Positions 295 to 35,976 are shown, numbered from the stretch's first letter. The stretch: DNA of 64,000 nt from Candidatus Vogelbacteria bacterium (GCA_021414225.1 JAIOOX010000002.1:342958-406957), one strand, 5' to 3'. Notes: generated by a model from the sequence alone, not told the origin. A program made the numbers and translations.

Positions 295-648
295 ATGGGT
301 ATCTTTGAGACAAAATGTCCCGGCTGTAACCGGACATACTCAGAAGCTGGAAATCATCCGGATGTGCCTCAGCTTTGCCGAGAATGCGGTGAAGTGGCCC
401 AATCACACGCCGAGTCCCTTGGCGAGCCCTGGCCCAAACCCGATCACACTCTGCACAAGAAATGCTTCACGTGTAGCAAGGTAGAGGTGGCAGACGAGGT
501 CTGGCGAGTACTTGATGCTGCAGAGCGGATCAGCCGGATCTTGTACCCCGTCTATGCCTGCCCGGACTGCAGGGAGAGGATCCATACCAGGAAAACCCCA
601 CTGCAAATGCCAGGAGCGGCAGAAGAGGCAGAAACGGTGGGTGTCTAG
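295..648 (+). CDS. Cys-rich zinc-ribbon protein (four CxxC pairs), GC-rich solitary cassette
   Basis: 117-aa ORF with CPGC...CREC...CFTC...CPDC; GGGAGAG RBS 7 nt upstream; GC content far above flanks; followed by a hairpin and T-run. Confidence 0.55.
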   Translation: MGIFETKCPGCNRTYSEAGNHPDVPQLCRECGEVAQSHAESLGEPWPKPDHTLHKKCFTCSKVEVADEVWRVLDAAERISRILYPVYACPDCRERIHTRKTPLQMPGAAEEAETVGV

Positions 649-677
649 AACCCCCACAGACCCTCTCGACCCTTATA

Positions 678-721
678 GCCAGGAGCCGGACCACAGTGTC
701 CGCGCCCTGGCTTTATTTTTT
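678..721 (+). terminator. Terminator-like hairpin (gccagg...cctggc) plus T9
   Basis: Inverted repeat followed by tttatttttt immediately after the 295..648 ORF. Confidence 0.45.
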
Positions 722-735
722 ACTCCAAAATAATT

Positions 736-1620
736 TTAATCGAACAAGCTAATCAAGTATTTATCAATCTCTCGCTGATCTAAATCATAGAAATTTTTCT
801 TTTCCGAATACAACATCCTCGCCAAATCAACTCCCACAAACCGCCAGTGCCATGGTTCGTATTTATAATAAGTATTACCTTTAGGATAAGACAGAACAAA
901 ACCATACTTGTGAGCGTTTTCAACCAACCAGATATAAGCTGAATCTTTTTCAAAACCAACCAAACCAGGACCAGTTTTGATTGTCGTAAAATCAACCGTC
1001 GTTCCTAGTTGATGCTCCGAGTAACCCTGGTCGGCCGAAAACTGGTTAGCTGTCCCCGCTCCATAAATTATTTTATATTGAGACTTCAAAGAAGCCTGGG
1101 TGGCAAAAGATCGATAAGCAGAAACAATTTGTAGTTTTACACCATCATCTTCAGCTGACTCTAGTAAACGATTCAAATATGAAGCTACTTGAGTTTGAAT
1201 TTGAAGTGGAGTTTTTTTATTTAATAGATAATCTTCATCTATATCAACCAAATTAGCTGGAACATAGTGTTCATTCAAGAAATAAACTTTTGAATACTTT
1301 TCTAGTAACTGCTTATCTGTTTGGCTTAGTTTTTCCAGGGTACCAACCGTACTACTAATATCACTAACCTTTTTACCAAAATCTTCGACCGTCACTTGAG
1401 CTGTCCGTAAAGCTTCTCCTAATTTATAGTTACTGTCAGTGGTGGTTGCCAAAGATAACTCTAATCGATTGATCACTTGTCTCTGGAGAACGTTTTGTTT
1501 ATCCAACAAAAGATATTGATAAGACCCATAAGCAAAAACTCCTCCGACCACTATCATTGAGATCAAAGTGAACCAGAAACTGCCCGTTTTCAATTCATCT
1601 AGAATATCTTTCATGGACAT
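736..1620 (-). CDS. D-alanyl-D-alanine carboxypeptidase, VanY/peptidase M15B family, N-terminal membrane anchor
   Basis: SxHxxGxAxD-like YSEHQLGTTVDF and EPWHWRF motifs typical of M15 D,D-carboxypeptidases; N-terminal TM helix. Confidence 0.7.
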   Translation of the reverse strand: MSMKDILDELKTGSFWFTLISMIVVGGVFAYGSYQYLLLDKQNVLQRQVINRLELSLATTTDSNYKLGEALRTAQVTVEDFGKKVSDISSTVGTLEKLSQTDKQLLEKYSKVYFLNEHYVPANLVDIDEDYLLNKKTPLQIQTQVASYLNRLLESAEDDGVKLQIVSAYRSFATQASLKSQYKIIYGAGTANQFSADQGYSEHQLGTTVDFTTIKTGPGLVGFEKDSAYIWLVENAHKYGFVLSYPKGNTYYKYEPWHWRFVGVDLARMLYSEKKNFYDLDQREIDKYLISLFD

Positions 1621-1682
1621 GATTGTAGCACAAAAAACTATTAGACAAACTCCCCCAGTCTAATCATTAAACTTAGGAACAA

Positions 1683-4077: not shown

Positions 4078-4130
4078 TTACCCCTGGTTGGATAGGTTCA
4101 GAACTTTGGATTGGATGAGGGTTAAAAGAG
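4078..4130 (+). repeat. Island boundary repeat copy 1 (core cccctggttggataggttcagaac + ctttggattggatgagggttaaaag tail)
   Basis: One of six direct copies of the same 24-27-nt core; the tail is shared with copy 3. Confidence 0.85.
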
Positions 4131-4142
4131 AAGTTGAAGAAC

Positions 4143-5123
4143 TTATCCTATAATTTGTTTTGCGATAACCCTAGACATAACCAGTATTTCTCCTATTGAA
4201 CCTCCTCCTAAACGGCCCTTTCCATGCATACCATAAGCACATTCACCGAGGGCGTACATATTTTTTACTTTCGTTTCTCCTCGTTTATTTATACGGATAC
4301 CCCCTAGAACAAAATGGGGTTCAATATCAAGTTCTATTCTCTGTTTTCCATTTACGGCATACCTCTTGGCTGTTTTTTGATATTCTTTACAAATATCGTC
4401 GAACCGATGGTGAGCGTTATGAGCCCTCACTAAGTCGTGCGTTAGTTTAAGTCTTTTATTTTTCTCATCAATAAAATCAAAACTATACAAATTATCACTA
4501 GGGATGCATACCCCTTTAGAGTAAAACGGGTGCCTCATTACTAAATCTTGATACATAACAGTACACCCAGCCGCCCTAACAATCTCAAACATATTGTTTT
4601 GCACTCTTTCATCAACAAATTTATCTGATAATCTTGCTCTTAGCCCACCAAAACAAAAAACAATTTTCTGGCAATGAATAACACCCTGAGATGTCACAAC
4701 TTCTACATACTTACGACTTTTTTTAACGGAAATAACCTCGGCATAAATTCGACTGAAATCAGACTCTTTTTTTATTTTATTAAGCAGTAACTTGGGGTTG
4801 CTAACCTTTGCACCCAGATAAGAAGGTTCCATTTTTGTTAGGTGACTCAAATAAGTAAGTTCGTCATCAATATTGTTTACAAATATACTAACTAATTGCT
4901 TGTTACTTTTGCCGTAACTAGCCAAACTCATCGATTCTTTTAATGACGTCTGTTTTACTCCTCGTGACCTGATATTAAAGTAGGATTTATCACTAACCGT
5001 TTTCATATCAGGGGCAACAATTAGAAAATCATGTTTACCACCCACAATAAGATGGTGAGCCAAATAAAGACCAGAAAACCCAGCACCCACAATAACAATA
5101 TCTGTTGTTTTAATTTTTTCCAT
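4143..5123 (-). CDS. FAD/NAD(P)-binding oxidoreductase
   Basis: N-terminal Rossmann dinucleotide motif VIVGAGFSGLYLAHHL; 326 aa. Confidence 0.6.
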   Translation of the reverse strand: MEKIKTTDIVIVGAGFSGLYLAHHLIVGGKHDFLIVAPDMKTVSDKSYFNIRSRGVKQTSLKESMSLASYGKSNKQLVSIFVNNIDDELTYLSHLTKMEPSYLGAKVSNPKLLLNKIKKESDFSRIYAEVISVKKSRKYVEVVTSQGVIHCQKIVFCFGGLRARLSDKFVDERVQNNMFEIVRAAGCTVMYQDLVMRHPFYSKGVCIPSDNLYSFDFIDEKNKRLKLTHDLVRAHNAHHRFDDICKEYQKTAKRYAVNGKQRIELDIEPHFVLGGIRINKRGETKVKNMYALGECAYGMHGKGRLGGGSIGEILVMSRVIAKQIIG

Positions 5124-5153
5124 ATTATTTTAATTAATGATTTTAATTTTTAA

Positions 5154-5182
5154 TAAAAAAACTGCCCACAGGCAGTTTTTTT
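5154..5182. terminator. Bidirectional hairpin terminator (ctgcc caca ggcag, flanked by A8 and T7)
   Basis: Perfect stem with A-run 5' and T-run 3'. Confidence 0.6.
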
Positions 5183-5443
5183 ATTAATGTCAGAGATAAG
5201 TTTTTACTTACACATTAGAAAATAACCGCCTATTACGCCAAGCAGTCCACCAAAAAGTATTTTTCTTGTATGTATAATTCATATTTTGAGTGTAAATAAT
5301 TGAAATAAAAAAGTCAATCCTATTTAACAAGGTCGGTTACACTTACCCTTTACAACTAAGACTAAATATGATATAGTTAATCAGGAATAAAAACCGACCT
5401 AGCAATAGGTCACACCGGGCTAAGCCCAAGAAAGGACGTTCCC

Positions 5444-6349
5444 ATGTTCCGCAAGCTCTTTGTTATGTGTCTTATCTGTCTATCGGGAGTGGCTCCAGCC
5501 GACGATTGCTTGTTTGGCGGAAGTCACTCGGCCGACACCAACGGCGACCGCCGGATCAACTTGCCAGAAGTGTTACGGGTCATCCAGATCTACAACAGCC
5601 AAGGGAGTGCCTACCACACCAAGGTCGGCACCGAAGACGGTTTTGCTCCTGGCGAATGCGACCAAGGCTATAATTCGATCACGGTGCCGTACGGCGGCTC
5701 GGTCACCCTCAACCCAACAACGGTGGGTGCTACGGTACAGCCCTACAACTGGTACGCAGCCTTGGGTTTTGGCTACTGGATTTCTAGCCAAACCCCGAGT
5801 CTGACACTTACCAATTGTACTCCGGTAAACACTGGAGCGTACTTCTACCGGTCAACCAGTGGTGAGTATTTCTTCGTTAAGGTCACTGGGGTGGCCGACT
5901 TACAGTTGATCGCCTACCCCAACAACGGTCCCTGGCTCGCGGTAGCCTTCAGCCTAAACGGGTTGAGCCTTGGCCAGTTACTGGCTTCCCCACTTCAAGA
6001 TGGCGAAGTGGTAATCGGCCTCAAAGTCATTATTGAGGTTGGTGACAAGTGCTTCACGGATGTGGGGGTATTCAATTACCAACCACTGCTGACCGGGATT
6101 TACGAGGCCAACGTCGTGAGTTTCGACGGCGAAGGGGTGCTTGATTGTTCGGGCCAGCCGGCTACGAACATTGACTTCACTAATCTGCCGACAGGCACAA
6201 CGGTCAGTTTTCAGTTGGCGGTAAAGAGGTCAGATCTGCCAGACACCTATCAGCACTTTGTCGACATCCGGCCCGAGAACACGTTCTTGAGCCTGAACCA
6301 GACACAGGCCTTGGTCTCTACCGGAACCGGTAGCTGGCTGTACAAGTAA
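5444..6349 (+). CDS. Secreted GC-rich protein with N-terminal dockerin/EF-hand-like Ca-binding repeat
   Basis: Signal peptide MFRKLFVMCLICLSGVAPA; DTNGDRRINLPEVLRVIQ matches the dockerin DxNxDGxxN/D pattern; RBS AAAGGA; GC-rich relative to host. Confidence 0.55.
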   Translation: MFRKLFVMCLICLSGVAPADDCLFGGSHSADTNGDRRINLPEVLRVIQIYNSQGSAYHTKVGTEDGFAPGECDQGYNSITVPYGGSVTLNPTTVGATVQPYNWYAALGFGYWISSQTPSLTLTNCTPVNTGAYFYRSTSGEYFFVKVTGVADLQLIAYPNNGPWLAVAFSLNGLSLGQLLASPLQDGEVVIGLKVIIEVGDKCFTDVGVFNYQPLLTGIYEANVVSFDGEGVLDCSGQPATNIDFTNLPTGTTVSFQLAVKRSDLPDTYQHFVDIRPENTFLSLNQTQALVSTGTGSWLYK

Positions 6350-6376
6350 CAGTCAAAATCGCTATAACACACCTTA

Positions 6377-6416
6377 CCCCGCCGCTTCATTCAGAAGTGG
6401 CGGGGTTGAATTTTTT
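6377..6416 (+). terminator. Rho-independent terminator (ccccgccgcttc/gaagtggcgggg + T-run)
   Basis: 12-bp stem (one G-U) then ttgaatttttt, 28 nt after the stop. Confidence 0.65.
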
Positions 6417-6465
6417 AAATATAGATCAATAATAAAAATTATAACTAAGCCTCTAATACAAAAAA

Positions 6466-6492
6466 ATCACCAAAAACTTGGGTGATTTTTTC
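6466..6492. terminator. Bidirectional hairpin (atcacc...ggtgat) between A6 and T6
   Basis: Seen in sequence immediately left of repeat copy 2. Confidence 0.4.
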
Positions 6493-6497
6493 TACTC

Positions 6498-6536
6498 ACT
6501 CCCCTGGTTGGATAGGTTTAGAACAGTGGAGTGGTC
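6498..6536 (+). repeat. Island boundary repeat copy 2 (core + cagtggagtgg tail)
   Basis: tcccctggttggataggtttagaacagtggagtgg; the tail is shared with copies 5 and 6. Confidence 0.85.
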
Positions 6537-6602
6537 AGTAATTAAAAAAATCTAAATAATATATCTTTACATTTACCTAATTTGAATTAATATCTACTAT
6601 TA

Positions 6603-7211
6603 ATGATAACTTCGGACAAAGAACGACAAGCTCCAACTAAAACTTTAGAAGCGGAACCTTCTCATTTAGCCCGCTATCAATTTGCGCTAAAATTTATAAA
6701 AAATGAAGACATTATATTAGATACTCCATGCGGAAGTGGTTACGGTTCAAATTTATTATCCACTAAAGCAAAAATGGTTACGGGAATAGATATTCATCCT
6801 GGAGCAATTCAACACGCTAAAGAGTTTTTTCACAATGATAAAATAGATTTTTTTGTGGCTGATATGCAAAATCTAGAAATTCATTTTCCAGACAGTAAAA
6901 AATTTAATCTAATTGTTAGTTTTGAAGGAATTGAACATATAAAAGACCAAACTAAATTTTTAAGTAGCGCTTCTAAACTTATAAATAAAGATGGGTACTT
7001 AATCATTTCTACCCCTCGAAAACCACATGGAAGTCCATACCACACCGTAGAATTTTCTTTAGAGAGTTTTAGGGATATATTGTCAAAAAGTTTTGTTATA
7101 GAAAAAATGTTTGGTCAGATATATACGGATATATTTGATATGGAAGAAAGAAAAGAAAATCCCGAAGATTATCACAGATTTAATTTTATTGCTCTTTGTA
7201 AAGCAAAGTAA
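6603..7211 (+). CDS. Class I SAM-dependent methyltransferase
   Basis: Motif I LDTPCGSGYGSNLL; 202 aa; AT-rich, unlike the neighbouring cassettes. Confidence 0.65.
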   Translation: MITSDKERQAPTKTLEAEPSHLARYQFALKFIKNEDIILDTPCGSGYGSNLLSTKAKMVTGIDIHPGAIQHAKEFFHNDKIDFFVADMQNLEIHFPDSKKFNLIVSFEGIEHIKDQTKFLSSASKLINKDGYLIISTPRKPHGSPYHTVEFSLESFRDILSKSFVIEKMFGQIYTDIFDMEERKENPEDYHRFNFIALCKAK

Positions 7212-7276
7212 AGTATTGCTCCCCTGGTTGGATAGGTTTAGAACTTTGGATTGAATGAGGGTTAAAAATGAATTAA
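7193..7276 (+). repeat. Island boundary repeat copy 3 (inverted extension ctttgtaaagcaaagtaaagta overlapping the MTase stop, then core, then the copy-1-type tail)
   Basis: Core 7218-7244 identical to the other copies; the extension is in inverted orientation relative to copies 4-6. Confidence 0.8.
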
Positions 7277-7287
7277 CTTGTCTAAAT

Positions 7288-7608
7288 TTAACACTCTACC
7301 CATTGTCCATCTAAAAAATTGACTACGGAAGTTCCTCCAACACAGTCGCCATTTTCATAATAAGCTACCTGGATGGTTGTAACCAAACTGGAAGCTTCTT
7401 GGTACTGACCTTTTCTGGTATACCTATATTCTGTTACTTCTCCATCTGATGCCCCAGGTACTTCAACTTCCCACAGATAAATACCTTGTTCATCTTCAAG
7501 ACAACGAGTAGTTTTATACTCTCCCTCTATATGTCTTCCAAAAACAGCTGATATTTCATCTTGGTTTGGAATGGATTCTAGACTTCCCTGTTCATAGTTT
7601 TCTTTCAT
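7288..7608 (-). CDS. Hypothetical protein (106 aa)
   Basis: ORF only; no recognisable motif. Confidence 0.4.
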   Translation of the reverse strand: MKENYEQGSLESIPNQDEISAVFGRHIEGEYKTTRCLEDEQGIYLWEVEVPGASDGEVTEYRYTRKGQYQEASSLVTTIQVAYYENGDCVGGTSVVNFLDGQWVEC

Positions 7609-7650
7609 ATAAATAATTCTAGCACAAAATAGTTAAAATTTAGTTACTTA

Positions 7651-7697
7651 TAAAAACAAAAGCCGCCCAACGAGTCGGGAGACTTTCGTGGACGGAC
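7651..7697 (-). terminator. Island-family terminator (imperfect GC hairpin + U-run on the minus strand)
   Basis: aaaaacaaaagccgcccaacgagtcgggagactttcgtggacgg; shares the aatttagtt..tataaaaacaaaa..ccgcc architecture with the terminators at 9225, 10214 and 11447. Confidence 0.4.
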
Positions 7698-7708
7698 ATA
7701 CCTCAAAC

Positions 7709-8173
7709 TTAGAAACTGATAACATCTCCGACGATGATTACACCATCGGTCAGAATGCGGGCCCGAAGACCCCCTCTGCCCTGGAAAGCAGTTTCGAATC
7801 CAGGCTTCTTCGCCAAAGCTGAAGGTCGATTGCACGGAGTGCAGAGTTCTACTCCGAGCATCCTGACATCTCCGACCGAGAACTCTTGGCCGACCAGAGT
7901 GTTTAGATCAACCCTTTCGGTTAGAATATTGCGACGGGTATCTTCTGGAGAAAAAGGAATCTCGACTTCCTTGTTTGCTTCTGCAATTGCCTCGACAGCT
8001 ATCAGAGAAACATCACGAAAGGTTTCGCCTACTCTGTGTTTTGAGAAAGCTCCCCTTCCGTCTTTGTACCGATCGCCCTCCAACCCGCGACCCGTAATGG
8101 CATTAACTGCTTGCACAGATACCATTGGTTGCCCTTTATCAGAGGCAACATATATTGCTCTCACATTTGGCAT
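7709..8173 (-). CDS. MOSC-domain protein
   Basis: 154 aa; conserved GDRY, late conserved Cys (CTPCNRP), MOSC beta-barrel length; RBS AAAGGGG; GC-rich. Confidence 0.6.
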   Translation of the reverse strand: MPNVRAIYVASDKGQPMVSVQAVNAITGRGLEGDRYKDGRGAFSKHRVGETFRDVSLIAVEAIAEANKEVEIPFSPEDTRRNILTERVDLNTLVGQEFSVGDVRMLGVELCTPCNRPSALAKKPGFETAFQGRGGLRARILTDGVIIVGDVISF

Positions 8174-8276
8174 GATTTACCCCTTTCGTAGGACTAAGGT
8201 TTCGGTTTCAATTATGTACTACACTAATAGTATTTCTAGCAGAAAATTTAAGAAAAAGAAAACTGTATAATTCTAA

Positions 8277-8340
8277 TACTTTACTTTGCTTTACAAAAGC
8301 TCCCCTGGTTGGATAGGTTTAGAACAATAAACTGGACGAA
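8277..8340 (+). repeat. Island boundary repeat copy 4 (25-nt tRNA-flank extension + core)
   Basis: tactttactttgctttacaaaagctcccctggttggataggtttagaac; the first 25 nt are identical to the sequence abutting the tRNA-Asn 3' end. Confidence 0.85.
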
Positions 8341-8409
8341 GATTGAGGAAGAATTAAGTATTTTGAGTTTGGTAGAAAAAACTCCGTACCCTCAGGGGCG
8401 CGGAGTTGC

Positions 8410-9147
8410 TTAGAGCACATCTTGTTTCTTGTATTTTTGCAAACTTTGTTTAAGTCTTCCTCTCGCTGTTTTAAGTTGCTGACTAACAGCCGATGAGGAT
8501 GATCGGCCATACATAGCAACGATCTGTTCCTGATTCAAACCCTCGAGATAGTACCAAACCAGCAATTGTCGATGAATCGGTTTTAAATCTTCTAAGGCTC
8601 GCCTGACGATATCCCTCCTTTCTTCCCTTAATATTTGGGCTATGGGATCATGCGTCTGATCATCTTTTACAACTTCAGACAGAGGCGACAACTCTTCTTC
8701 GTGTTGTTTTCCGCCTAAGTGTGCATTTAGAGACAGAATTCCGACATGGGATTTCCCTATCTTTTCCTCTACCCGCTCCAGGGTTAGACCCATCGCTTCA
8801 GCCATTTCATTGAGCGTTGGACGCCTCAATAATTTATGGCTGAGCTGAACTTCTACCTTATCCAGATCTTTCCTGTGACTACGCTGAGTGCGCATACTTA
8901 ACACCAAACCTGGTCGTAAACAGTCGTACATAGCCCCCAGAACATGCCGATAGCAAAAAGTTTTGAAAGTAGCCTTCGATTTTTTACTATCAAAACAATC
9001 CGCTGATTCAATCAGGGCTTCAAGCCCAGCTGAATAGAAATCTTCAAACCGCAGATGAAGTGGCAACTTTTCACACACTTTAAGAGCCAGAGACCGCACA
9101 AAGTCGATCTGGCTGAGAATCAGGACTTCTCGCTCGCTCATGGCCAA
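8410..9147 (-). CDS. RNA polymerase sigma factor, sigma-70 family (regions 2 and 4), located inside the cassette array
   Basis: 245 aa; region 2-like FEDFYSAGLEALIESADCFD and region 4 HTH QLLVWYYLEGLNQEQIVAMYGRSSSSAVSQQLKTARGRL. Confidence 0.65.
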   Translation of the reverse strand: MAMSEREVLILSQIDFVRSLALKVCEKLPLHLRFEDFYSAGLEALIESADCFDSKKSKATFKTFCYRHVLGAMYDCLRPGLVLSMRTQRSHRKDLDKVEVQLSHKLLRRPTLNEMAEAMGLTLERVEEKIGKSHVGILSLNAHLGGKQHEEELSPLSEVVKDDQTHDPIAQILREERRDIVRRALEDLKPIHRQLLVWYYLEGLNQEQIVAMYGRSSSSAVSQQLKTARGRLKQSLQKYKKQDVL

Positions 9148-9224
9148 ACCTCCTTTAAGTTAAGGGCCTTTCTATATTTCAGAATAGTCTTAAGGAAGAG
9201 ACATTGTCAAATTTAGTTTAGTAT

Positions 9225-9264
9225 AAAAACAAAAACCGCCCCCCAACGGTTTCCGTGGTGGACG
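9225..9264 (-). terminator. Island-family terminator
   Basis: aaaaacaaaaaccgccccccaacggtttccgtggtggacgg; U-run on the minus strand after the sigma-70 family factor gene 8410..9147? No - it lies downstream of gene 9270..9620. Confidence 0.4.
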
Positions 9265-9269
9265 GCAAA

Positions 9270-9620
9270 TTACTTCTCAAGTTTAGAAAACCCTCCCTGG
9301 CCGAGCAAGATCCAGACCCAGAAATTTGTCAGTCTGCCTGGCGCCATTTCAGAGACATCATCGGTAATCGCCTGGCTACGCTTTTCCAGAGATTCGCGAC
9401 GTGTTGGATAATCATTGGCGAAGATCAGAATTTCCAAAGGTCGCTTCACAACATCAAAACGGCCAATGTCCATGAAGCGAAGTTCAATATCTTCCGGAGT
9501 AAGAGCACCCTCAGGAACCGAAAGATGTTGGGCGATAATGACTGGTAACTTCTGACGGAGAAGCAGCAGTAGTCCATCGCTGATTTTTGACGGATCTCTG
9601 GTAACAAACGCTACGGGCAT
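9270..9620 (-). CDS. Tautomerase/MIF-like superfamily protein (putative)
   Basis: 116 aa starting Met-Pro (MPVAFVTRDP...DGLLLLLRQKLPVIIAQHLSVP), parallel to the MIF/4-OT N-terminus; AGGAGGTG RBS 6 nt upstream; GC-rich. Confidence 0.4.
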   Translation of the reverse strand: MPVAFVTRDPSKISDGLLLLLRQKLPVIIAQHLSVPEGALTPEDIELRFMDIGRFDVVKRPLEILIFANDYPTRRESLEKRSQAITDDVSEMAPGRLTNFWVWILLGQGGFSKLEK

Positions 9621-9657
9621 ATTCCACCTCCTTTCCGAAGGTTGTTGTTCTGAACAT

Positions 9658-9664
9658 ATTACTA
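9658..9664 (-). promoter_or_regulatory. Cassette promoter -10 element TGnTAGTAAT (minus strand), about 30 nt upstream of the 9620 start
   Basis: Same 10-mer as at 10054 and 11753. Confidence 0.4.
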
Positions 9665-9682
9665 ACAGAAATTCAGGTAAAA

Positions 9683-9725
9683 GAAAAACCGCCTCCTCAA
9701 CGCGGGTTTCCTTGTTGAGGGGCGG
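9683..9725 (-). terminator. Island-family terminator; 25-nt identity with the thrS terminator
   Basis: aagaaaaaccgcctcctcaacgcgg is identical to 44543-44567; hairpin ccgcctcctcaac...gttgaggggcgg. Confidence 0.55.
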
Positions 9726-9752
9726 TACGTGTAGCGATTGAATGAAAAAGGT

Positions 9753-10010
9753 TCAGTTCGTGACGGTCGCTGCGACTTCCGCTGGCTCCTGGTCTGTGAT
9801 CTGGAGCTGGACACTCTTGGCAACACGGCACTGCTGATCGATCCCGAACGCAACAGACTTCGCTGTCCAGGCCTCGATAATAGCCTGATGCCCCTTCGGC
9901 ACCTTGGTTGCCTCGATGAGCTGCCCAAGAACTATCATTTCACCAACCGATGAAGCACTGTTGATTGCATCCACGATAGACTCGTGGAAAGGCTTATGAT
10001 CACTCGGCAA
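9753..10010 (-). CDS. Hypothetical protein; start probably TTG at 10010, the longest ORF extends to GTG 10064
   Basis: The TTGACG-N17-TAGTAAT promoter overlaps the 10064 GTG; AAAAGGAGG lies 4-5 nt before an in-frame TTG. Confidence 0.4.
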   Translation of the reverse strand: MPSDHKPFHESIVDAINSASSVGEMIVLGQLIEATKVPKGHQAIIEAWTAKSVAFGIDQQCRVAKSVQLQITDQEPAEVAATVTN

Positions 10011-10053
10011 GGGACCTCCTTTTAGCCATGGTTGTATGGCTTTTTCTGTACTG

Positions 10054-10083
10054 ATTACTAACACAAATTTATGTATTCGTCAA
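10054..10083 (-). promoter_or_regulatory. Sigma-70-type promoter TTGACG-N17-TAGTAAT (minus strand)
   Basis: -35 at 10078-10083, -10 at 10054-10060, spacing exactly 17. Confidence 0.5.
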
Positions 10084-10109
10084 GTATAGCTTACCGGAAC
10101 AAAAAAAAC

Positions 10110-10213
10110 ACTTTACTTTGCTTTACAAAAGCTCCCCTGGTTGGATAGGTTCAGAACAGTGAATTGGAAAGAAGTTGAAAATGAATTAAATAGATTTAGT
10201 TTTGTATAAAAAG
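10110..10213 (+). repeat. Island boundary repeat copy 5 (extension + core + tail with aatagatttagttttgtataaaaa)
   Basis: About 100 nt alignable with copy 6. Confidence 0.85.
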
Positions 10214-10250
10214 AAAAACCGCCCAACCTGAAACTGCATTGGGCAGTCTT
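10214..10250 (-). terminator. Island-family terminator (gcccaa...ttgggc hairpin + U-run)
   Basis: aaaaaccgcccaacctgaaactgcattgggcag. Confidence 0.5.
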
Positions 10251-10281
10251 CTGGCCTGGCGGCACAACATTGAATCCAACT

Positions 10282-26762: not shown

Positions 26763-26912
26763 TCAGTCTTTCTTGTCCTCCGGCTTCAGCAAGCCTTGGC
26801 CCGGATAACCGAGATTGCCCCGACCCGTCAAAATCGAGACTGTCTGGGGTGGTGCTGGATCAGGACGCACCCAACCATTATTAAGTCTTCGGCCAAACGG
26901 ATCCATATACAT
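26763..26912 (-). CDS. Small GC-rich Gly/Pro-rich ORF (49 aa) with strong RBS
   Basis: GGAGGT 8 nt before the ATG; MYMDPFGRRLNNGWVRPDPAPPQ...; local GC is much higher than the flanks; not in the ORF track (below 60 aa). Confidence 0.3.
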   Translation of the reverse strand: MYMDPFGRRLNNGWVRPDPAPPQTVSILTGRGNLGYPGQGLLKPEDKKD

Positions 26913-27687: not shown

Positions 27688-27791
27688 TGGCCAAATCCTA
27701 GCATTAAAAAACTTAAAAAGAAATCGCCGCCAGAAAATTCTAGCGGCGACAGGTTTCAAAAAAGTTAAAAGATGGAATTCACCTCACATAT

Positions 27792-28523
27792 TCACTCTAC
27801 CACTTCACGACCACGACAAAGATGACCATAGTCCCGAGCACCCCACAGCTCTATCAGTAAACTGCTTTGGGAAGTCTTCTTTTTCTCACACCATTCAGCT
27901 GAATAGAACATGGAGTAGTCACTGTCCTCTCTGTGGTCTCTGTGGTATGAACCTGAACAAAGTGTTTTGGTTTTAACATCGAGATGTTGCCCTGTCTCCG
28001 AAAAATATACTAGTTCGTAGACAAGACGCTCCCGCAAAGTCATTCCGTTAACACCTCTTTCTTTTAATTCTTTAATTGGAAGACCTGCCAACAAGGGGTC
28101 AGCTTCGATACTATCACGAACCCAAACTCCATAAGTTTCCTCCGCTGTACGATTATTCTTCGCCACCGGCGGAAGCGGGCGTTCATTATCGGCGCTAATG
28201 ATAGTGACGCTGAACATTTGTCGCAATATCACGATGAGATTTTCTTCCAACAGGCCTCCTGGCAACACGAGAAGCCGCTCGAAACCCGACTTCCTTTCTG
28301 GAACAATCACAGAAGAAGGTTTAATCTTCACTCCAAAATCAGCATACACCGAACAAACCCGGTTGAGCTGAGAATCAGTATCCATTGGGTAGACCCATGG
28401 ATCTTCCCGCCTGAGAAACCGCCTGGCTTGTAATGGGGTGATAGCCGCAGTATTCAACTTGTTCATGAAATCAAGACCGAGGCCGAAGAGGTTCGCTCTT
28501 GGGCTGCCGAGCATGTTTGACAT
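27792..28523 (-). CDS. Hypothetical protein (243 aa), GC-rich insert between the KH gene and trmD where rimM is normally found
   Basis: No recognisable motif; compositionally distinct from the neighbours. Confidence 0.45.
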   Translation of the reverse strand: MSNMLGSPRANLFGLGLDFMNKLNTAAITPLQARRFLRREDPWVYPMDTDSQLNRVCSVYADFGVKIKPSSVIVPERKSGFERLLVLPGGLLEENLIVILRQMFSVTIISADNERPLPPVAKNNRTAEETYGVWVRDSIEADPLLAGLPIKELKERGVNGMTLRERLVYELVYFSETGQHLDVKTKTLCSGSYHRDHREDSDYSMFYSAEWCEKKKTSQSSLLIELWGARDYGHLCRGREVVE

Positions 28524-28682
28524 GGTCAGCCTTCCTTTCTTTTATCTTTTCGAGGTGCCACAGCAGTAGATTAGCGAAATGCCAAGTACCCTGTTCTAAT
28601 TATTATTATAGCATATAACCAGTAAAAATGCAAGGCCAAGCACTCACAAGCCAAGTGAGCCTAATTGTTTTGCAAATCAACA

Positions 28683-31859: not shown

Positions 31860-31912
31860 AAAACCCCCGGATCATTCATCAAACTTAATTGATAATTGAT
31901 CGGGGGGTTTAG
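31860..31912. terminator. Long imperfect hairpin (cccccggatcattcatcaa...ttgataattgatcgggggg) flanked by A/T
   Basis: Between convergent rnr and the 31967 gene. Confidence 0.5.
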
Positions 31913-31966
31913 AAATAAAATTTTGTCTTCCTCTCGAAAGTCAAAATCCCAAGCTGATAGAAGTCG

Positions 31967-32329
31967 CTAGATAGTAACCACTGGTGTGAACAGGTAGAGT
32001 CCGCCGCTGGCGCTCCACACATAATCATCCCAGAAGTCATAAGCAACACCACTGTTGGTATCAACAGCCGGCCGTCCTTCATAGTTGAACAGGAAGACCT
32101 TTTTGCCAGCAGGTAATCCTCTCTGTTCCCGCCAGAAGAGATCGATCAAGGACCCAGATAGACAGAGCTTCTCCAAGCTAATCCCCACCGAACCAAAGAG
32201 GTCCAGAAAACTGCCATCGCCCATTGCTCGATAAACAGCGAAGCCTGAGGATATCGCCAGCCCGCTTTCTGGTGGGACCAGGGTGACACAATCTGGACGA
32301 AGAATCATCCCCTCTTTTATCTCAAACAC
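31967..32329 (-). CDS. Hypothetical protein (120 aa), GC-rich
   Basis: Overlaps the upstream gene by 13 nt (operon). Confidence 0.4.
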   Translation of the reverse strand: MFEIKEGMILRPDCVTLVPPESGLAISSGFAVYRAMGDGSFLDLFGSVGISLEKLCLSGSLIDLFWREQRGLPAGKKVFLFNYEGRPAVDTNSGVAYDFWDDYVWSASGGLYLFTPVVTI

Positions 32330-33237
32330 GGGAACGCCTCCCTTTTTCCACCAAATAGATGGGACAGGAGATCTCCGCCCGCCTGGCTGGTGAATTGAAG
32401 CTGAGTCAGTGAAAGATCCAGCTTGGCTGGCAAGCTCTGCCGCTCTAAGTCTACAGCAGTCAAAGATCTCCCGTTCGCTGGCTGTCCTTCAGGCAAGCGG
32501 AAGAGGACCTTCCAACAAATCTCCTCCGAATGACAGCAGTAGAGCAGTTCCTCCTTCACAGACATTTCAGGCTCCACACTAGAGTAACAGACCCTTGTCT
32601 TTCCGCTGATGCCGCGATCTTTACTCCAATGTTCAAGTACATAGAAGTGATGTTCTCCGTACCAGTTAGTAACGACCCCCTCCGTTGCCACCAGCACCGG
32701 TTGGTGATAAGTGGTCTGATAGCCACAGATTCCCAGAATCGGGATGATCGTGTAGGGGCACTCCAGTAGCCCCATTTCCAAACCCCGCGAATAGACATCC
32801 TGCAGAGACATCGACTTGTCGTCCTTGTCAAAACCAAGGTCTTCAAGAGATACCTCGACAAAAGTCATATCAAAGACATCGCCTTGTGGCTGAAGTAGCA
32901 ACTGGGCAATAATCCCTTCCGCCCCCCGAGCTTGGTGACTGTGCGAATACAAGCGATGGTGACCACCACCATCTCCCCGTCTAAAGCGAAGAGGTATGTG
33001 CCATAAGTCGCTGAAACAGAGGTTTAGCCCCATCTCTTTGACCAAATCGGCCAACTGTTCATAGTCCTCGGGACTGGGAATTGGGTACCTGACCCGAAAG
33101 ACCGGCCCAGATATCAGTCCGGGCAACTTACTATTCGGCCCAGAAAGAAGTCCAGCTGGATCACCGGGTGGGACAACGCCCACTCTCTGTACATTGTTTT
33201 TCACGATTAAGAAGCTCCTTTTTAAAGTCCACGTCAT
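32317..33237 (-). CDS. Hypothetical protein (306 aa), GC-rich
   Basis: No recognisable motif; compositional outlier. Confidence 0.45.
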   Translation of the reverse strand: MTWTLKRSFLIVKNNVQRVGVVPPGDPAGLLSGPNSKLPGLISGPVFRVRYPIPSPEDYEQLADLVKEMGLNLCFSDLWHIPLRFRRGDGGGHHRLYSHSHQARGAEGIIAQLLLQPQGDVFDMTFVEVSLEDLGFDKDDKSMSLQDVYSRGLEMGLLECPYTIIPILGICGYQTTYHQPVLVATEGVVTNWYGEHHFYVLEHWSKDRGISGKTRVCYSSVEPEMSVKEELLYCCHSEEICWKVLFRLPEGQPANGRSLTAVDLERQSLPAKLDLSLTQLQFTSQAGGDLLSHLFGGKREAFPCLR

Positions 33238-33340
33238 AGGTTAACCACATAATTAACCCACAACCAGACCATTTCATACCACACAAATTTAAAAATAGCA
33301 ATGATTATCAATACTTACGGATCTAAGTGATTCTGGATTC

Positions 33341-35581
33341 TTACTTAGCAAATCCAGCTGCCTCATCAAATCTAATTGATAGAAGTTTAGATACCCCATC
33401 AGAACCCATGGTCACACCATAAAGGATACTGGCTCGAGACATTGTTTCCCTATTGTGAGTGATGACGATTAGTTGAGAGTGTTTGGCGAGAGCGGTCACC
33501 ATTTCACCGTATTTGCGAGAGTTGGCTTCATCAAGGGCCGCGTCAGTTTCATCAAGAATCAAAAATGGTGGCGGATTAACTTGCGACATCGCAAAGAGTA
33601 AAGCGATAGAAGTCAGAGCGCGCTCACCACCAGAGAGCATCTGGAGACCTTTTATTTTCTTCCGTGGTAAGTTCACATTAATATCAATCCCCGTTTCCAC
33701 TTCTTTATCGCCTTCAGTTATATCACCCTCCATCTCTTCTCCACTATCATCAGAGAAGACGCTACGCTTGCGCTTCACTTCTTGAACTAACTCTAGCGAA
33801 GCCGATCCCCCGTCGAACATCAGCACAAAGAAGTTATTAAATTCTTTGTTAATTTTTCCAATACCTTCAGCAAATTCGTGTGACAGCTTTTCGCGCAATT
33901 CTTTCATCACATTCTTCAAACTTTCAGAGGCGGTCAACAAATCTTCCAATTCTTTGGCTAAATATTCATCACGCTCAGTCACCTCTTTGTATTCAGTCAG
34001 TACATCAGTCCCTTCCATACCCATATCTTCCAAGCGAATCTTAATGCGCTCGATCGTGCGACGACGGTCTTCTTGTTTATCGCGAGGTTCATTATCTGGC
34101 ACAAAAGAAGCCATAAAGCGATCGTACTCCAGCACTTCCCGATCCACTAAAGTCACCGCCTCATCTAGCTCTCGTTTGAAGTTTTCTTGAAGAACCGCCA
34201 AAGTCCTAGATTCCGCTTCAGTGGCATCAAGAATAGAAGATAACTCCATTTTCTTAGAGCGTAATTCAAACACTTCTCGCTCGGCGCCGCGAGTCGCTTC
34301 GCGCTCTTTTTCTATCGCTTGTTTAAGTTCTAACTGACGACCCAAGTTTTTCTCTTCGTCGGCAATCAATTGAGCCAGTTCCTGATCAAGTTCTACTTTC
34401 TGATTTTTCAGTGAAGCTAAAACTTCTTCTTTATTATCCTCTCTCTTAATCTGGTGTTTAAATTTATCAACAAAATTTCTCAGTAAACTTTTGACTTCAA
34501 TCAAGGCCGAGCGTAAGACTGAGATATTATCAAGCTGAGCCCGACTATCAATATGCGCTTCAATATTAGCCAAGACTGATTTCAACTCTGACATCGGCAC
34601 CGAGGCATCTTCTTCGGTTTTTATTTCCGCCAATTGTTCCGTCTTTATTTCAATCAAACCTTCTAGACGACCAAGTTGCCGAGCAATATCGTCTTTCTTG
34701 GTGCGAATATCGCGAAGGAGGCGCTCCAGCACCGCCAATTCTCCACTGGCCGCTGATTCACTAATATCGCGCTTAAGTGCCTGTTCCGCATCAGCTAAAC
34801 GAGCCAAAACAGCTGTTAGTTCCGCTTGCGGTCCAGACTTTTTGTGAGTCAAGCTATTGGCGGTTTCAATTAAATAAACTGATTCGCGTTTTAAATATTC
34901 AAAATATAATTTCTTGAGTTCCCGACGCATTTCGTCAGCCTTCTCCACTTTCTCGACCTGCTTTTTCAAAAACCGAATATGCGGCGCAATCTCGCGACGG
35001 AGTGATTCTATTTCTTTAACATTTTGCTCGGTCTTATCTAATTTCTTTTCACTTTCGGTAATTTTCCATTGATACACTTTCAAACCTAAAGCCTCTTCAA
35101 TCATTTCTTGCCGATCTTTAATACTGGAATTTAAAATTCGATCAGCTTCGCCTTGAGAAATAATATGATGACCGGTCGAACCAAGCGAGACTGAACCAAG
35201 TAGCTCAATAATATCTTTCAATCGCACAGCTGAACCATTGATCGCGTACTCGTTGGAACCATCGCGATGGACAGTACGGGTGATAACTACTTCATCATAA
35301 TCAATATTGAAACGCTTCGATGTATTATCAAAAGCGACCGAGACTGAGGCTCGATTGAGCCGACCACTGGAACTAGTGCCGTTGAAAATTAAGTCTTCTC
35401 CACGTTTACCACGCAGAGATTTGAGAGACTGCTCACCGAGCACCCAACGAAAGGCTTCGGCCACGTTTGATTTACCAGAGCCATTAGGACCGACAATAGA
35501 TGTAACCGGCGCGTCAAAAGACAAGGTCGTTTTTTTACCAAAAGACTTAAAACCATTTATTTCTAGCCTGGTGAGACGCAT
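33341..35581 (-). CDS. smc: SMC-like chromosome segregation ATPase, short form (about 746 aa from ATG 35581)
   Basis: N-terminal RLTRLEINGFKSF...GPNGSGKSN Walker A, long coiled coil, C-terminal LSGGERALTSIALLFAM signature and Walker B ILDETDAALD. Confidence 0.65.
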   Translation of the reverse strand: MRLTRLEINGFKSFGKKTTLSFDAPVTSIVGPNGSGKSNVAEAFRWVLGEQSLKSLRGKRGEDLIFNGTSSSGRLNRASVSVAFDNTSKRFNIDYDEVVITRTVHRDGSNEYAINGSAVRLKDIIELLGSVSLGSTGHHIISQGEADRILNSSIKDRQEMIEEALGLKVYQWKITESEKKLDKTEQNVKEIESLRREIAPHIRFLKKQVEKVEKADEMRRELKKLYFEYLKRESVYLIETANSLTHKKSGPQAELTAVLARLADAEQALKRDISESAASGELAVLERLLRDIRTKKDDIARQLGRLEGLIEIKTEQLAEIKTEEDASVPMSELKSVLANIEAHIDSRAQLDNISVLRSALIEVKSLLRNFVDKFKHQIKREDNKEEVLASLKNQKVELDQELAQLIADEEKNLGRQLELKQAIEKEREATRGAEREVFELRSKKMELSSILDATEAESRTLAVLQENFKRELDEAVTLVDREVLEYDRFMASFVPDNEPRDKQEDRRRTIERIKIRLEDMGMEGTDVLTEYKEVTERDEYLAKELEDLLTASESLKNVMKELREKLSHEFAEGIGKINKEFNNFFVLMFDGGSASLELVQEVKRKRSVFSDDSGEEMEGDITEGDKEVETGIDINVNLPRKKIKGLQMLSGGERALTSIALLFAMSQVNPPPFLILDETDAALDEANSRKYGEMVTALAKHSQLIVITHNRETMSRASILYGVTMGSDGVSKLLSIRFDEAAGFAK

Positions 35582-35621
35582 GGGTAAATAATACCATAAG
35601 CTTATCTTCCCTAGAAACAAT

Positions 35622-35662
35622 GAACCCGCCTCGCGACGTGTTCATTGTCGGGGCGGGTGTGA
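35622..35662 (-). terminator. Island-family terminator (cccgcctcgcgacg...ttgtcggggcggg)
   Basis: Near-identical arms to 11451-11491. Confidence 0.6.
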
Positions 35663-35670
35663 AATCTGAT

Positions 35671-35976
35671 TTAGTCTTGGTGGACAGGTACGTCCATGAC
35701 TTCGCCAAAACGCGAAATGGCACCTTTGTAATCAATCGTGGCCAAATCCGGGAACAATTCCAGAAGAACCGGCCGCAACTGCTCACGACAGACAAACGCT
35801 GTACCACTCCACGAATCACAACCAGCTGCCACTTCGGATGGCAAAGCGGTCTTCGCCAAATCCATCAACTCTTGGGTTGTGACGGCCACAGTCCCAGGCA
35901 AGGTCTTGGCCGAGCCTACCAACCAAAGTACTCTGGTTGGATGTTTTTTTGTGACCCAACTGGCTACAGAAGACAT
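35671..35976 (-). CDS. Hypothetical protein (101 aa), GC-rich solitary cassette between rnc and smc
   Basis: AAGGAG RBS 9 nt upstream; consensus promoter further upstream; island-type terminator downstream. Confidence 0.5.
   Translation of the reverse strand: MSSVASWVTKKHPTRVLWLVGSAKTLPGTVAVTTQELMDLAKTALPSEVAAGCDSWSGTAFVCREQLRPVLLELFPDLATIDYKGAISRFGEVMDVPVHQD

What the first reader, a model, noticed from the sequence alone, without database searches (positions are those of the whole stretch)
295..35976. Dispersed GC-rich single-gene inserts share terminator sequences with the tRNA-Asn island
Compositional outliers (clearly GC-rich against an AT-rich host) occur at 295-648, 5444-6349, 7709-8173, 9270-10010, 10282-11253, 26763-26912, 27792-28523, 31967-33237 and 35671-35976. 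The terminator after 35671..35976 shares a 15-mer and a 13-mer (acccgcctcgcgacg / ttgtcggggcggg) with the terminator of the first island cassette (11451-11491). The island terminator at 9681-9705 shares an exact 25-mer with the thrS terminator (44543-44567). This implies either one mobile cassette pool seeding several chromosomal sites or recruitment of host terminators by cassettes. Inserts fall inside normally conserved neighbourhoods: rimM is missing between the KH gene and trmD, rnc and smc are split, and rnr and smc are split.
Basis: partly seen in the sequence, partly recalled or inferred. Interest (0 to 1): 0.7.

Follow-up and report, generated by a model that had tools for sequence, protein, structure and literature searches.

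The report
Foreign single-gene units sharing promoters and terminators
A small-genome groundwater-type bacterium (Candidatus Vogelbacteria) carries about a dozen GC-rich foreign genes, each with its own promoter and terminator, wedged between conserved housekeeping genes and stacked beside a tRNA-Asn gene; their control sequences are related to one another, which points to one source pool, but this is a variation on ordinary horizontal gene transfer.

Summary
All listed segments are GC-rich (0.47-0.56 against 0.414 for core genes). By GC3 and codon usage most are strong outliers. The quoted 15-mer, 13-mer and 25-mer matches are exact.

The genome is a Candidatus Vogelbacteria (Paceibacteria, CPR) MAG. 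None of 80 relatives with the same nusB-rnc-smc-rnr-rpsP-KH-trmD-rpoB order has homologues of the four dispersed genes tested. An independent assembly of run SRR15633504 reproduces the junctions of four of the six dispersed units at 100% identity, so they are real, lineage-specific additions.

Each is a self-contained unit: promoter, Shine-Dalgarno sequence, ORF, terminator. Promoter and terminator regions are homologous among the atypical units and hardly ever with native genes. This supports a common source pool.

Three points need correction:
- The att-like repeats that delimit the tRNA-Asn island cassettes are absent from the dispersed sites, and no target duplications or inverted ends exist there. 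A shared insertion mechanism is therefore not shown.
- rimM is absent at this position in all relatives examined.
- The "thrS terminator" belongs to a small atypical minus-strand ORF, which argues against host-terminator recruitment.

No donor was identified. I rate this a new variant of horizontally acquired, moron-like units, of moderate interest.

The parts
295..648 (+). Dispersed unit 1: 117-aa Cys-rich (4x CxxC) ORF, GC 0.56
   Evidence: GC3 z +5.1, codon z -7.6. Only a sub-threshold Pfam ADK_lid hit (E 7e-4, 19.9 bits, below the 26.6-bit cutoff); no PHROG, NCBIfam or PADLOC family. Upstream hairpin at 204-238. Shares the intergenic terminator with the convergent VanY gene 736-1620.
26763..26912 (-). 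Dispersed unit 2: 49-codon ORF with a GGAGG Shine-Dalgarno sequence and a terminator-like inverted repeat (~26704-26737), between trmD and rpoB
   Evidence: The ORF is also called as a gene on the independent Logan contig L001. The region has no significant RNA fold (z -0.07; fold of 26725-26765 is also weak), so the terminator reading rests on the sequence only.
27715..28633 (-). Dispersed unit 3: promoter TTGCAT-17-TATAAT (28605-28633), 243-aa ORFan (27792-28523), terminator (27715-27749), between KH and trmD
   Evidence: GC3 z +2.4, codon z -2.9. Only a self hit among 5.8 billion proteins. Absent from 80 relatives. Junctions reproduced in L001.
31861..33340 (-). Dispersed unit 4: two overlapping ORFs (32317-33237, 306 aa; 31967-32329, 120 aa) with a strong bidirectional terminator (31861-31910), between smc and rnr
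   Evidence: GC3 z +4.3 and +4.1. Four distant homologues at 32-38% identity in other contexts. Terminator dG -28 kcal/mol. Junctions reproduced in L210.
35624..36094 (-). Dispersed unit 5: consensus promoter TTGACA-17-TATAAT with TG (36066-36094), 101-aa ORF (35671-35976), terminator (35624-35657), between rnc and smc
   Evidence: GC3 z +3.7. Its terminator is homologous to that of island cassette 11493-11696 (z 18.8). Its upstream region resembles that of unit 3 (z 5.3-5.5). In L210.
44543..44866 (-).
   Evidence: U-tract lies on the minus strand. Codon z -5.0. Terminator matches 9680-9727 over 48 nt at 88% (z 25.9). Upstream region resembles the ParB cassette's (z 5.5). Whether the ORF is real is not established.
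11822..11895 (-). tRNA-Asn(GTT), anchor of the island
   Evidence: ARAGORN and Rfam tRNA at 69.7 bits.
4078..11826 (-). tRNA-Asn island: six segments separated by direct repeats at 11339-11452, 10107-10220, 8275-8388, 7195-7289 (core inverted), 6498-6569 and 4078-4149. The 26-nt core GGAGCTTTTGTAAAGCAAAGTAAAGT also abuts the tRNA 3' end at 11801-11826.
   Evidence: The repeats have no significant fold. A Logan contig of 1247 bp is exactly one ParB cassette bounded by the repeats. A homologous island exists in a second MAG contig, L082.
5444..6349 (+). Island gene: 301-aa ORFan with a signal-peptide-like N-terminus, the strongest GC outlier; terminator 6376-6406
   Evidence: GC3 0.67, z +6.6. 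No family hit. Terminator.
7709..8173 (-). Island gene: MOSC-domain protein, a weak outlier
   Evidence: Pfam MOSC 3.6e-11. GC3 z +1.7, codon z -4.1.
8410..9147 (-). Island gene: FliA/WhiG-like sigma factor
   Evidence: NCBIfam TIGR02479 7.4e-33, below cutoff; Pfam sigma-70 regions r2, r3 and r4.
9270..10010 (-). Two island ORFans (9270-9620, 9753-10010), each with promoter ...TGTTAGTAAT and its own terminator (9229-9256, 9681-9727)
10282..11211 (-). Island gene: orphan ParB/Spo0J-family protein
   Evidence: TIGR00180 3.5e-28; Pfam ParB_N. Homologues at 53% and 43% identity on two other short contigs.
11450..11696 (-). tRNA-proximal island cassette: 67-aa Zn-ribbon-like ORF (11493-11696) and terminator (11450-11491)

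Best explanation
The GC-rich segments are horizontally acquired, self-contained transcription units. Each has a sigma-70-type promoter, a 5' UTR with a Shine-Dalgarno sequence, one ORF (once two) and an intrinsic terminator. They resemble phage 'morons' but sit in the chromosome backbone of a 42%-GC Candidatus Vogelbacteria genome.

They were added after this lineage split from all sampled relatives. They entered intergenic gaps of a conserved housekeeping block and a tRNA-Asn integration hotspot.

Their promoters, UTRs and terminators are homologous to each other and not to native genes. The shared terminators are therefore inherited parts of the incoming DNA, not borrowed host terminators. 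The units most likely come from one gene pool: a family of GC-richer (~50%) mobile elements of Paceibacteria. In such elements, unrelated genes would be separated by conserved regulatory boundary modules (inferred).

The island units were stacked by repeated site-specific recombination at the 3' end of tRNA-Asn. Each brought the same arm plus a 26-nt core, and the recombinase acted in trans (inferred from anatomy). The dispersed units lack that site and any transposon signature. They probably entered by illegitimate or short-homology recombination (inferred, not shown).
For: - Foreign composition: GC3 z +2.3 to +6.6 for nine of the ten listed ORFs (7709-8173 only +1.7) and codon z -2.2 to -7.6. 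Tetranucleotide correlation is 0.31/0.39 with core genes but 0.59 between the dispersed and island sets.
- Lineage-specific: none of 80 relatives with the same gene order has homologues of 27792, 31967, 32317 or 35671. The closest relative, L063, has compact junctions. Median gaps are 72 nt for rnc-smc and 96 nt for KH-trmD.
- Real, not chimeric: independent Logan contigs of SRR15633504 are 100% identical across window 30290-42985 and 24848-28784.
- Autonomous units: promoters, Shine-Dalgarno sequences and terminators are visible. The two shared terminator pairs and the unit-4 hairpin fold at dG -19 to -28 kcal/mol with U-tracts.
- Shared regulatory DNA: upstream regions reach z > 5 in 6.4% of atypical-atypical pairs, against 0.7% of native-native and 0% of native-atypical pairs. 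Terminator regions reach z > 5 in 15.4% against 0.7%.
- The terminator at 44543 serves a minus-strand atypical ORF.
- Island att anatomy, and a homologous GC-rich tRNA-Asn island in an AT-rich second genome. That island has a duplicated tRNA 3' end and homologous terminators behind non-homologous ORFs.
- The 32317 family is compositionally native elsewhere, with GC 0.34-0.51 matching its neighbours.
Against: - No donor or intact mobile element was found. There were no viral-contig matches to the repeats, ParB or the sigma factor.
- No integrase is present among the ORFs examined.
- Similarity between dispersed and island units is confined to 35-60 nt of regulatory DNA, and the ORFs are unrelated.
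- One native terminator (16542-16582) shows moderate similarity to the same hairpin family (z 5.6-7.5). Part of the resemblance may therefore reflect a genome-wide terminator style.
- Only 64 kb of the genome was available.
- The nearest relatives are distant (trmD no more than 62% identical), so 'recent' rests mainly on unameliorated composition.
- Several small ORFs (26763, 35671, 44595, 9270, 9753) have no homologues, so their coding status is inferred from signals only.
Confidence: 0.6

Rival explanations
1. The terminator hairpins, and perhaps the promoter modules, are themselves small repeated or mobile intergenic elements (REP- or MITE-like, or spread by gene conversion). They would spread independently of the genes next to them. 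Sharing them would then say nothing about a common origin of the genes.
For: Similarity is restricted to short hairpin-containing stretches, while the adjacent ORFs are unrelated. In L082, homologous terminators follow non-homologous ORFs. A native bidirectional terminator at 16542-16582 is moderately similar to the same family. The 44543 copy has a degraded 5' arm (dG -19.7 against -25.7 kcal/mol), as expected for a decaying repeat.
Against: In this window the strongly similar copies lie only beside compositionally atypical genes. Upstream regions show an independent excess of homology among the same units. No terminal repeats or duplications surround the hairpins.
Confidence: 0.2
2. This is the reader's strong model: one active cassette system. 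The tRNA-Asn array would be a reservoir, and the same recombinase would move cassettes to the dispersed sites.
For: The island has integron- or tycheposon-like anatomy with a repeated arm plus core. Dispersed units share terminators and promoters with island cassettes.
Against: The core and arm motifs occur only in the island. There are 0 further matches at up to 2-3 mismatches, and the 4-5 island matches compare with 0.01-0.15 expected by chance. There are no direct or inverted repeats at the dispersed unit ends. No recombinase gene was seen.
Confidence: 0.1
3. The segments are native genes whose composition deviates for reasons other than transfer (amino-acid content, expression level), or they are artefacts of MAG assembly.
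For: rpmF (37984-38208) lies inside a GC-rich 200-nt block although it is native, so GC alone misleads at this scale. 7709 and 8410 are only weak GC3 outliers.
Against: The deviation is at synonymous sites (GC3, codon z). The genes are absent from 80 syntenic relatives. A second assembler gives identical junctions over 12.7 kb and 3.9 kb. Each insert is flanked on both sides by host genes on one contig and sits exactly in an intergenic gap with its own signals.
Confidence: 0.05

Closest known systems
Phage 'morons' (single genes with their own promoter and terminator, inserted between neighbouring genes; described for lambdoid phages; from my own knowledge, not checked in a paper here)
   Same: One ORF flanked by its own promoter and intrinsic terminator. 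Composition differs from the surrounding genome. Inserted precisely between two otherwise adjacent genes. Cargo is mostly of unknown function.
   Different: These units sit in the chromosomal backbone of a CPR bacterium (housekeeping operons), not inside a prophage. Several of them share homologous promoter and terminator sequences.
tRNA-targeting integrative elements that build islands by successive integration, e.g. tycheposons of Prochlorococcus (bioRxiv 10.1101/2020.12.28.424599)
   Same: The island abuts a tRNA gene. It holds repeated copies of the attachment sequence that includes the tRNA 3' end. Newer units would push older ones outward, leaving degenerate remnants. The cargo is heterogeneous in composition. 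The paper describes partial tRNAs flanking elements and subsequent integrations at one site.
   Different: No integrase or replication module is present in the 7.7-kb array or in the 5-kb related contig. The units are only 0.4-2.4 kb. The repeated arm is ~85-114 nt and includes a terminator tail. The dispersed units have no att at all.
Integron gene cassettes with attC sites
   Same: An array of small, mostly single-gene units in one orientation, separated by a repeated ~70-115-nt sequence, with no recombinase inside the units.
   Different: The repeats are not structured (fold z about 0) and lack the R''/L''-L'/R' palindrome with GTTRRRY. The cassettes carry their own promoters. The array starts at a tRNA gene, not at attI/intI.
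Mobile or shared regulatory regions: homologous promoters upstream of unrelated genes, and conserved boundary sequences between modules in mosaic phages (own knowledge)
   Same: Homologous promoter/5' UTR and terminator DNA is attached to unrelated ORFs, within one genome and between two genomes (window against L082).
   Different: Here the sharing is restricted to compositionally foreign units. It includes matched terminator hairpins with conserved mismatches.

Membership tests
Integron cassette array | attC sites: imperfect palindromes folding into a hairpin with R''/L'' and L'/R' boxes (GTTRRRY core) | tested here: not met
   Island repeats fold no better than shuffles (z +1.1 to -1.6). No GTTRRRY/RYYYAAC pair is visible in the alignment.
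Integron cassette array | intI tyrosine recombinase and attI next to the array; cassettes mostly promoterless | tested here: not met
   No integrase domain in any island ORF. The array starts at tRNA-Asn. Cassettes have their own TTGAC-N17-TAGTAAT-type promoters.
tRNA-targeting integrative island (tycheposon-like / tandem accretion) | Location directly 3' of a tRNA gene, with direct repeats of an attachment sequence that overlaps the tRNA 3' end | tested here: met
   The 26-nt core at 11801-11826 overlaps the last 5 nt of tRNA-Asn and recurs at 11342, 10110 and 8278, and inverted at 7195. L082 has an 18-nt duplicate of the tRNA 3' end.
tRNA-targeting integrative island (tycheposon-like / tandem accretion) | Element-encoded integrase (tyrosine or serine recombinase) and, for tycheposons, a replication module | tested here: not met
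   None is present within window 1-12000 or in L082. The rest of the genome could not be read.
tRNA-targeting integrative island (tycheposon-like / tandem accretion) | Excision and integration activity (circular junctions, empty sites) | not testable with these tools
   Needs reads of SRR15633504 or cultures.
Moron-like autonomous transcription unit | Own promoter and own intrinsic terminator flanking a single ORF | tested here: met
   Consensus-level promoters and hairpin plus U-tract terminators for units 3 and 5 and the island cassettes. These are sequence predictions only, with no transcript data.
Moron-like autonomous transcription unit | Composition distinct from the flanking genome, and presence or absence between otherwise adjacent genes in relatives | tested here: met
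Moron-like autonomous transcription unit | Residence inside a phage or prophage genome | tested here: not met
   The neighbours are rpsP, KH, trmD, rpoB, rnc, smc, rnr, gyrB and thrS. PHROGs hits only for ParB.
Transposon / MITE / insertion sequence | Terminal inverted repeats and target-site duplication; transposase for autonomous forms | tested here: not met
   Longest flank-to-flank direct or inverted matches are 8-11 nt of AT-rich sequence, as expected by chance. No transposase domains.

The most novel reading that the evidence does not exclude
Paceibacteria may host a cassette economy in which unrelated genes travel as promoter-ORF-terminator modules. The tRNA-Asn array would act as an integrase-in-trans reservoir. 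The conserved terminator and promoter modules would themselves be the recombination handles that let single modules hop into terminator-proximal gaps of housekeeping operons. That would be a gene-capture system distinct from integrons and tycheposons.
Probability: 0.1. Interest if true: 0.75.

Novelty: new variant of a known kind. Interest (0 to 1): 0.42.

Why it matters
CPR/Patescibacteria have very small genomes, and how they gain genes is poorly documented. About 14% of this 64-kb stretch consists of recently acquired, mostly family-less genes inserted even inside the rpsP-KH-trmD and rnc-smc blocks. These genes carry related control sequences.

If the pattern holds genome-wide, three things would follow:
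- It would give a concrete, countable signature (shared promoter and terminator modules plus deviant GC3) for tracing a mobile gene pool in uncultured bacteria.
- It would define the boundaries of individual transfer events.
- It would flag a tRNA-Asn cassette array conserved in at least two genomes as a candidate gene-capture site.

If it does not hold, this remains a well-documented but ordinary case of horizontal gene islets.

Tried and rejected
1. Link between the ~105-nt structured element and the inserts. Two of its three window copies, and both copies in relative L024, lie next to GC-rich inserts. In 59 independent metagenome copies, however, flanks are no GC-richer than random (Wilcoxon p = 0.95; 5-7% against 3.9% of blocks at or above +0.06). 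I rejected the element as part of the cassettes.
2. attC-like or otherwise structured nature of the island repeats. They show no significant fold.
3. Secondary att sites at the dispersed inserts. None found.
4. Target duplications or inverted ends. None found.
5. Paralogy among the insert proteins. None; all BLASTP E values exceed 0.01.
6. Donor identification.
   - 27792 and 32317 return only themselves in the 5.8-billion-protein set.
   - ParB has two close relatives on short contigs, and only 26-34% identity to annotated phage and plasmid ParBs.
   - Viral-contig scans for the arm, the core, the structured element, ParB and the sigma factor were all empty.
7. Function of the cargo.
   - No PADLOC hits at all.
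   - PHROGs hits only for ParB.
   - NCBIfam hits only for ParB, the sigma factor and a weak MOSC match.
8. Known RNA families for the GC-rich segments. Rfam finds only three tRNAs plus sub-threshold noise. 26720-26960 has no fold signal.
9. tRNA-Asn arrays in other fetched loci (L141, L040). None found.
10. Literature searches for CPR islands or ORFan inserts returned nothing specific.

Full report
**1. What the window is**

The 64-kb window has 41.9% GC. Its proteins identify it as a MAG annotated "Candidatus Vogelbacteria bacterium" (locus tags K8Q91_, contig 409,485 bp). A scan of species-representative genomes with TrmD returned 80 loci from Paceibacteria/Parcubacteria-type MAGs. None had more than 62% TrmD identity, so no close relative was available.

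**2. Checking the observation**

All nine listed segments are GC-rich (0.47-0.56). GC alone is a blunt tool here. 200-nt windows at or above 0.50 also occur inside native genes.

I therefore used synonymous sites. Forty-six core genes have GC3 0.353 +/- 0.047. The listed ORFs lie at z +2.3 to +6.6, except 7709-8173 at +1.7. Synonymous-codon scores are z -2.2 to -7.6. Pooled tetranucleotide profiles correlate 0.31 (dispersed) and 0.39 (island) with core genes, against at least 0.82 for equal-sized core subsets. The dispersed and island sets correlate 0.59 with each other.

The quoted k-mers are exact. They extend to 48 nt at 88% identity (9680-9727 against 44542-44589) and 59 nt at 75% (11441-11499 against 35615-35665).

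**3. Are the inserts real and lineage-specific?**

tBLASTn of window proteins against the 80 loci shows a conserved order: nusB-rnc-smc-(gap)-rnr-rpsP-KH-trmD-(gap)-rpoB-rpoC-dnaG-sigA. There was no hit to the proteins of 27792, 31967, 32317 or 35671.

Median gaps in relatives:
- rnc-smc: 72 nt
- KH-trmD: 96 nt
- trmD-rpoB: 973 nt
- smc-rnr: 1955 nt

The rnc|smc and KH|trmD inserts therefore split normally tight junctions. rimM is simply absent at this position in these relatives. smc-rnr and trmD-rpoB are variable spots in most relatives. Fifteen relatives hold a Peptidase_S11+PGA_cap gene at smc-rnr that this window lacks, and the remaining fillers are mutually unrelated. Fillers in relatives are usually AT-richer than their core genes, so GC-richness is particular to this genome.

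Independent Logan contigs from run SRR15633504 are 100% identical to window 30290-42985 (spanning rnr, both ORFs of unit 4, smc, 35671 and rnc) and to window 24848-28784 (27792, trmD, the 49-codon ORF, rpoB). Chimeric assembly is not a tenable explanation.

**4. Anatomy of the units**

Read in coding orientation, the best-defined units have a sigma-70-type promoter, a 5' UTR with a Shine-Dalgarno sequence and a hairpin plus U-tract terminator. Examples:
- 35671: TTGACA-17-TATAAT with an extended TG.
- 27792: TTGCAT-17-TATAAT.
- Island cassettes: TTGAC(G/T)-17-TAGTAAT.

The two shared terminator pairs and the unit-4 hairpin fold at dG -19 to -28 kcal/mol.

On the thrS strand no U-tract follows it. 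It ends a 56-codon minus-strand ORF (44595-44765) that is codon-atypical (z -5.0). I count this as a sixth dispersed unit, although its coding status is unproven.

**5. Cargo**

The dispersed proteins hit no curated family. The only match is a sub-threshold Pfam ADK_lid hit for 295-648. 27792 and 32317 found only themselves among 5.8 billion proteins.

A full HMMER scan of 1.8 billion representatives gave 32317 four distant homologues at 32-38% identity. These sit in different neighbourhoods, and their GC (0.34-0.51) is close to that of at least one neighbouring gene. The family is therefore real and native to other CPR-like genomes. Here it is 10 GC points above its host.

Island genes include an orphan ParB, a FliA/WhiG-like sigma factor, a MOSC protein and small Zn-ribbon-like proteins. 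The insert proteins are not paralogues of each other.

**6. Shared regulatory DNA, with controls**

Local alignment z-scores against shuffles were computed for all pairs.

| Region compared | Atypical-atypical pairs with z > 5 | Native-native | Native-atypical |
|---|---|---|---|
| Upstream regions | 6.4% (78 pairs) | 0.7% (276 pairs) | 0% (312 pairs) |
| 75 nt downstream of stop codons | 15.4% (91 pairs) | 0.7% | 0.7% |

For the downstream regions, two of the three native-native cases and the top native-atypical case are convergent genes sharing one hairpin.

Individual matches:
- 9753 with 44595: z 25.9.
- 11493 with 35671: z 18.8.
- Upstream of 27792 resembles upstream of 35671.
- Upstream of 44595 resembles upstream of ParB.
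- Upstream regions of 9753, 11493, 9270 and 7709 are clearly homologous.

One native terminator (16542-16582) is moderately similar to the same hairpin type (z 5.6-7.5). Some house style exists, but not at the level of the atypical pairs.

**7. The island**

Six direct copies of a repeat (up to 114 nt) lie at 11339, 10107, 8275, 7195/7218, 6498 and 4078. Three copies end in a 26-nt core, GGAGCTTTTGTAAAGCAAAGTAAAGT. This core also forms the last 5 nt of tRNA-Asn plus the 21 nt that follow it. One copy has the core inverted beside a plus-strand methyltransferase. The two outermost copies have lost it. The repeats are not structured.

The layout is tRNA-core-[unit]-arm-core-[unit]-arm-core and so on. 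This is what successive integrations of circular units carrying arm plus core into the tRNA-proximal site would give, with the youngest unit next to the tRNA (inference).

A Logan contig of 1247 bp is exactly the ParB unit bounded by the repeat. A second MAG contig (L082, GCA_964473855.1) has tRNA-Asn followed by two AT-rich genes, an arm homologue ending in GGGGAGC, an 18-nt duplicate of its own tRNA 3' end, and then GC-rich units (GC 0.52-0.60 against 0.34-0.37). These units include a 53%-identical ParB, and they have terminators homologous to the window's behind non-homologous ORFs.

Island content is heterogeneous. Some units are AT-poorer and some AT-richer than the host. No integrase is present.

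**8. Do the dispersed units use the island's mechanism?**

No evidence supports this. The arm and core motifs occur only in the island, even allowing 2-3 mismatches. The dispersed units have no flanking direct or inverted repeats beyond chance 8-11-mers.

**9. Interpretation**

Shown:
- Foreign composition.
- Lineage-specific presence.
- Autonomy of the units at the sequence level.
- Homology of regulatory segments among atypical units.
- att-type anatomy of the island only.

Inferred:
- A common source, namely a GC-richer mobile-element family of Paceibacteria with conserved boundary modules.
- Site-specific stacking at tRNA-Asn by a recombinase in trans.
- Non-site-specific entry of the dispersed units.

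The main rival is that the hairpins and promoters are an independent repeat family. The 64 kb available cannot exclude this.

**10. Comparison with known systems**

- The units work like phage morons but lie in the chromosome backbone.
- The island resembles tRNA-anchored islands built by successive integrations, as described for tycheposons (bioRxiv 10.1101/2020.12.28.424599), but lacks integrase and replication modules.
- It fails the attC and intI criteria of integrons.

I file the whole as a new variant of horizontally acquired gene islets and cassettes, of moderate interest.

**11. By-product**

A ~105-nt three-way-junction element occurs at 28738-28846, 36190-36296 and 60392-60499, each starting at the stop codon of the upstream gene. 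A covariance model found 99 copies in relatives and metagenomes. Of their cells, 92.6% are paired, with 625 double-sided changes and almost no G-U pairs. No Rfam family matches. It is not associated with GC-rich inserts outside this genome and L024. It deserves its own follow-up.

Noticed in passing
window 28738-28846(-), 36190-36296(-), 60392-60499(-); also L024, L037, L042, L018, L064 and 80 metagenome loci (L086-L165): A ~105-nt three-way-junction element. It has a covarying outer stem and a conserved core, ACGGATA-N6-TGCT-N6-TTCCTC. There are 99 copies, often several per contig. Of their cells, 92.6% are paired, with 625 double-sided compensatory changes and almost no G-U pairs. 57 of the 84 copies that have a flanking upstream ORF of at least 100 codons have that ORF on the same strand, and 34 of those copies start within 12 nt of its stop codon. 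No Rfam 15 family matches. It may be an undescribed CPR 3'-UTR RNA or a DNA palindrome family.
   Followed up: partly
window 14686-14777 and 42695-42785: A 92-nt repeat (83% identity) lies directly upstream of the tRNA_bind-domain gene (14795) and of thrS (42804). A partial T-box match lies at 42596-42658, below the gathering score. This may be a shared leader or attenuator.
   Followed up: no
window 39111-39189(-): A tRNA-like gene that ARAGORN reports with an undetermined, 2-base 'anticodon' (tRNA-???). Rfam scores it as tRNA at 51 bits.
   Followed up: no
window 59146-59487(-): A very AT-rich SnoaL-like gene (GC 0.27, GC3 z -4.1) is wedged between the two transketolase half-genes and overlaps the downstream one by 4 nt. 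It is probably also foreign, but of opposite compositional sign.
   Followed up: partly
window 38340-38440(-), upstream of rpmF (37984-38208): A GC-rich long inverted repeat (CCTTTCCTTCCCTGGCCTCCAGGCGC / GCGCCTGGAGGC...GGGAGGG) in a 250-nt gene-free stretch. No Rfam match. It could be a leader or an unrecognised small RNA.
   Followed up: no
L024 443-1111 and 8017-8724: A related MAG contig has two GC-rich single-gene inserts (windows at 0.57-0.64 against 0.45) in the rnhB-nusB and rnr-rpsP gaps. Their proteins are paralogues (BLASTP E 3e-8), have no Pfam family, and each lies beside a copy of the structured element. The phenomenon of GC-rich islets in this gene block is therefore not unique to the window.
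   Followed up: partly
window 7195-7217 with 6603-7211(+): The island's 23-nt core segment is inverted here and forms the 3' end of a 31%-GC methyltransferase ORF on the opposite strand from the other cassettes. This suggests a site-specific inversion of that unit.
   Followed up: no
L082 1-5079 (GCA_964473855.1, CAYYQM010000028.1): A second genome with a homologous tRNA-Asn island: AT-rich genes, then an arm homologue, an 18-nt duplicate of the tRNA 3' end (2142-2159), and GC-rich units including a 53%-identical ParB and a PRA-CH-domain protein.
   Followed up: partly
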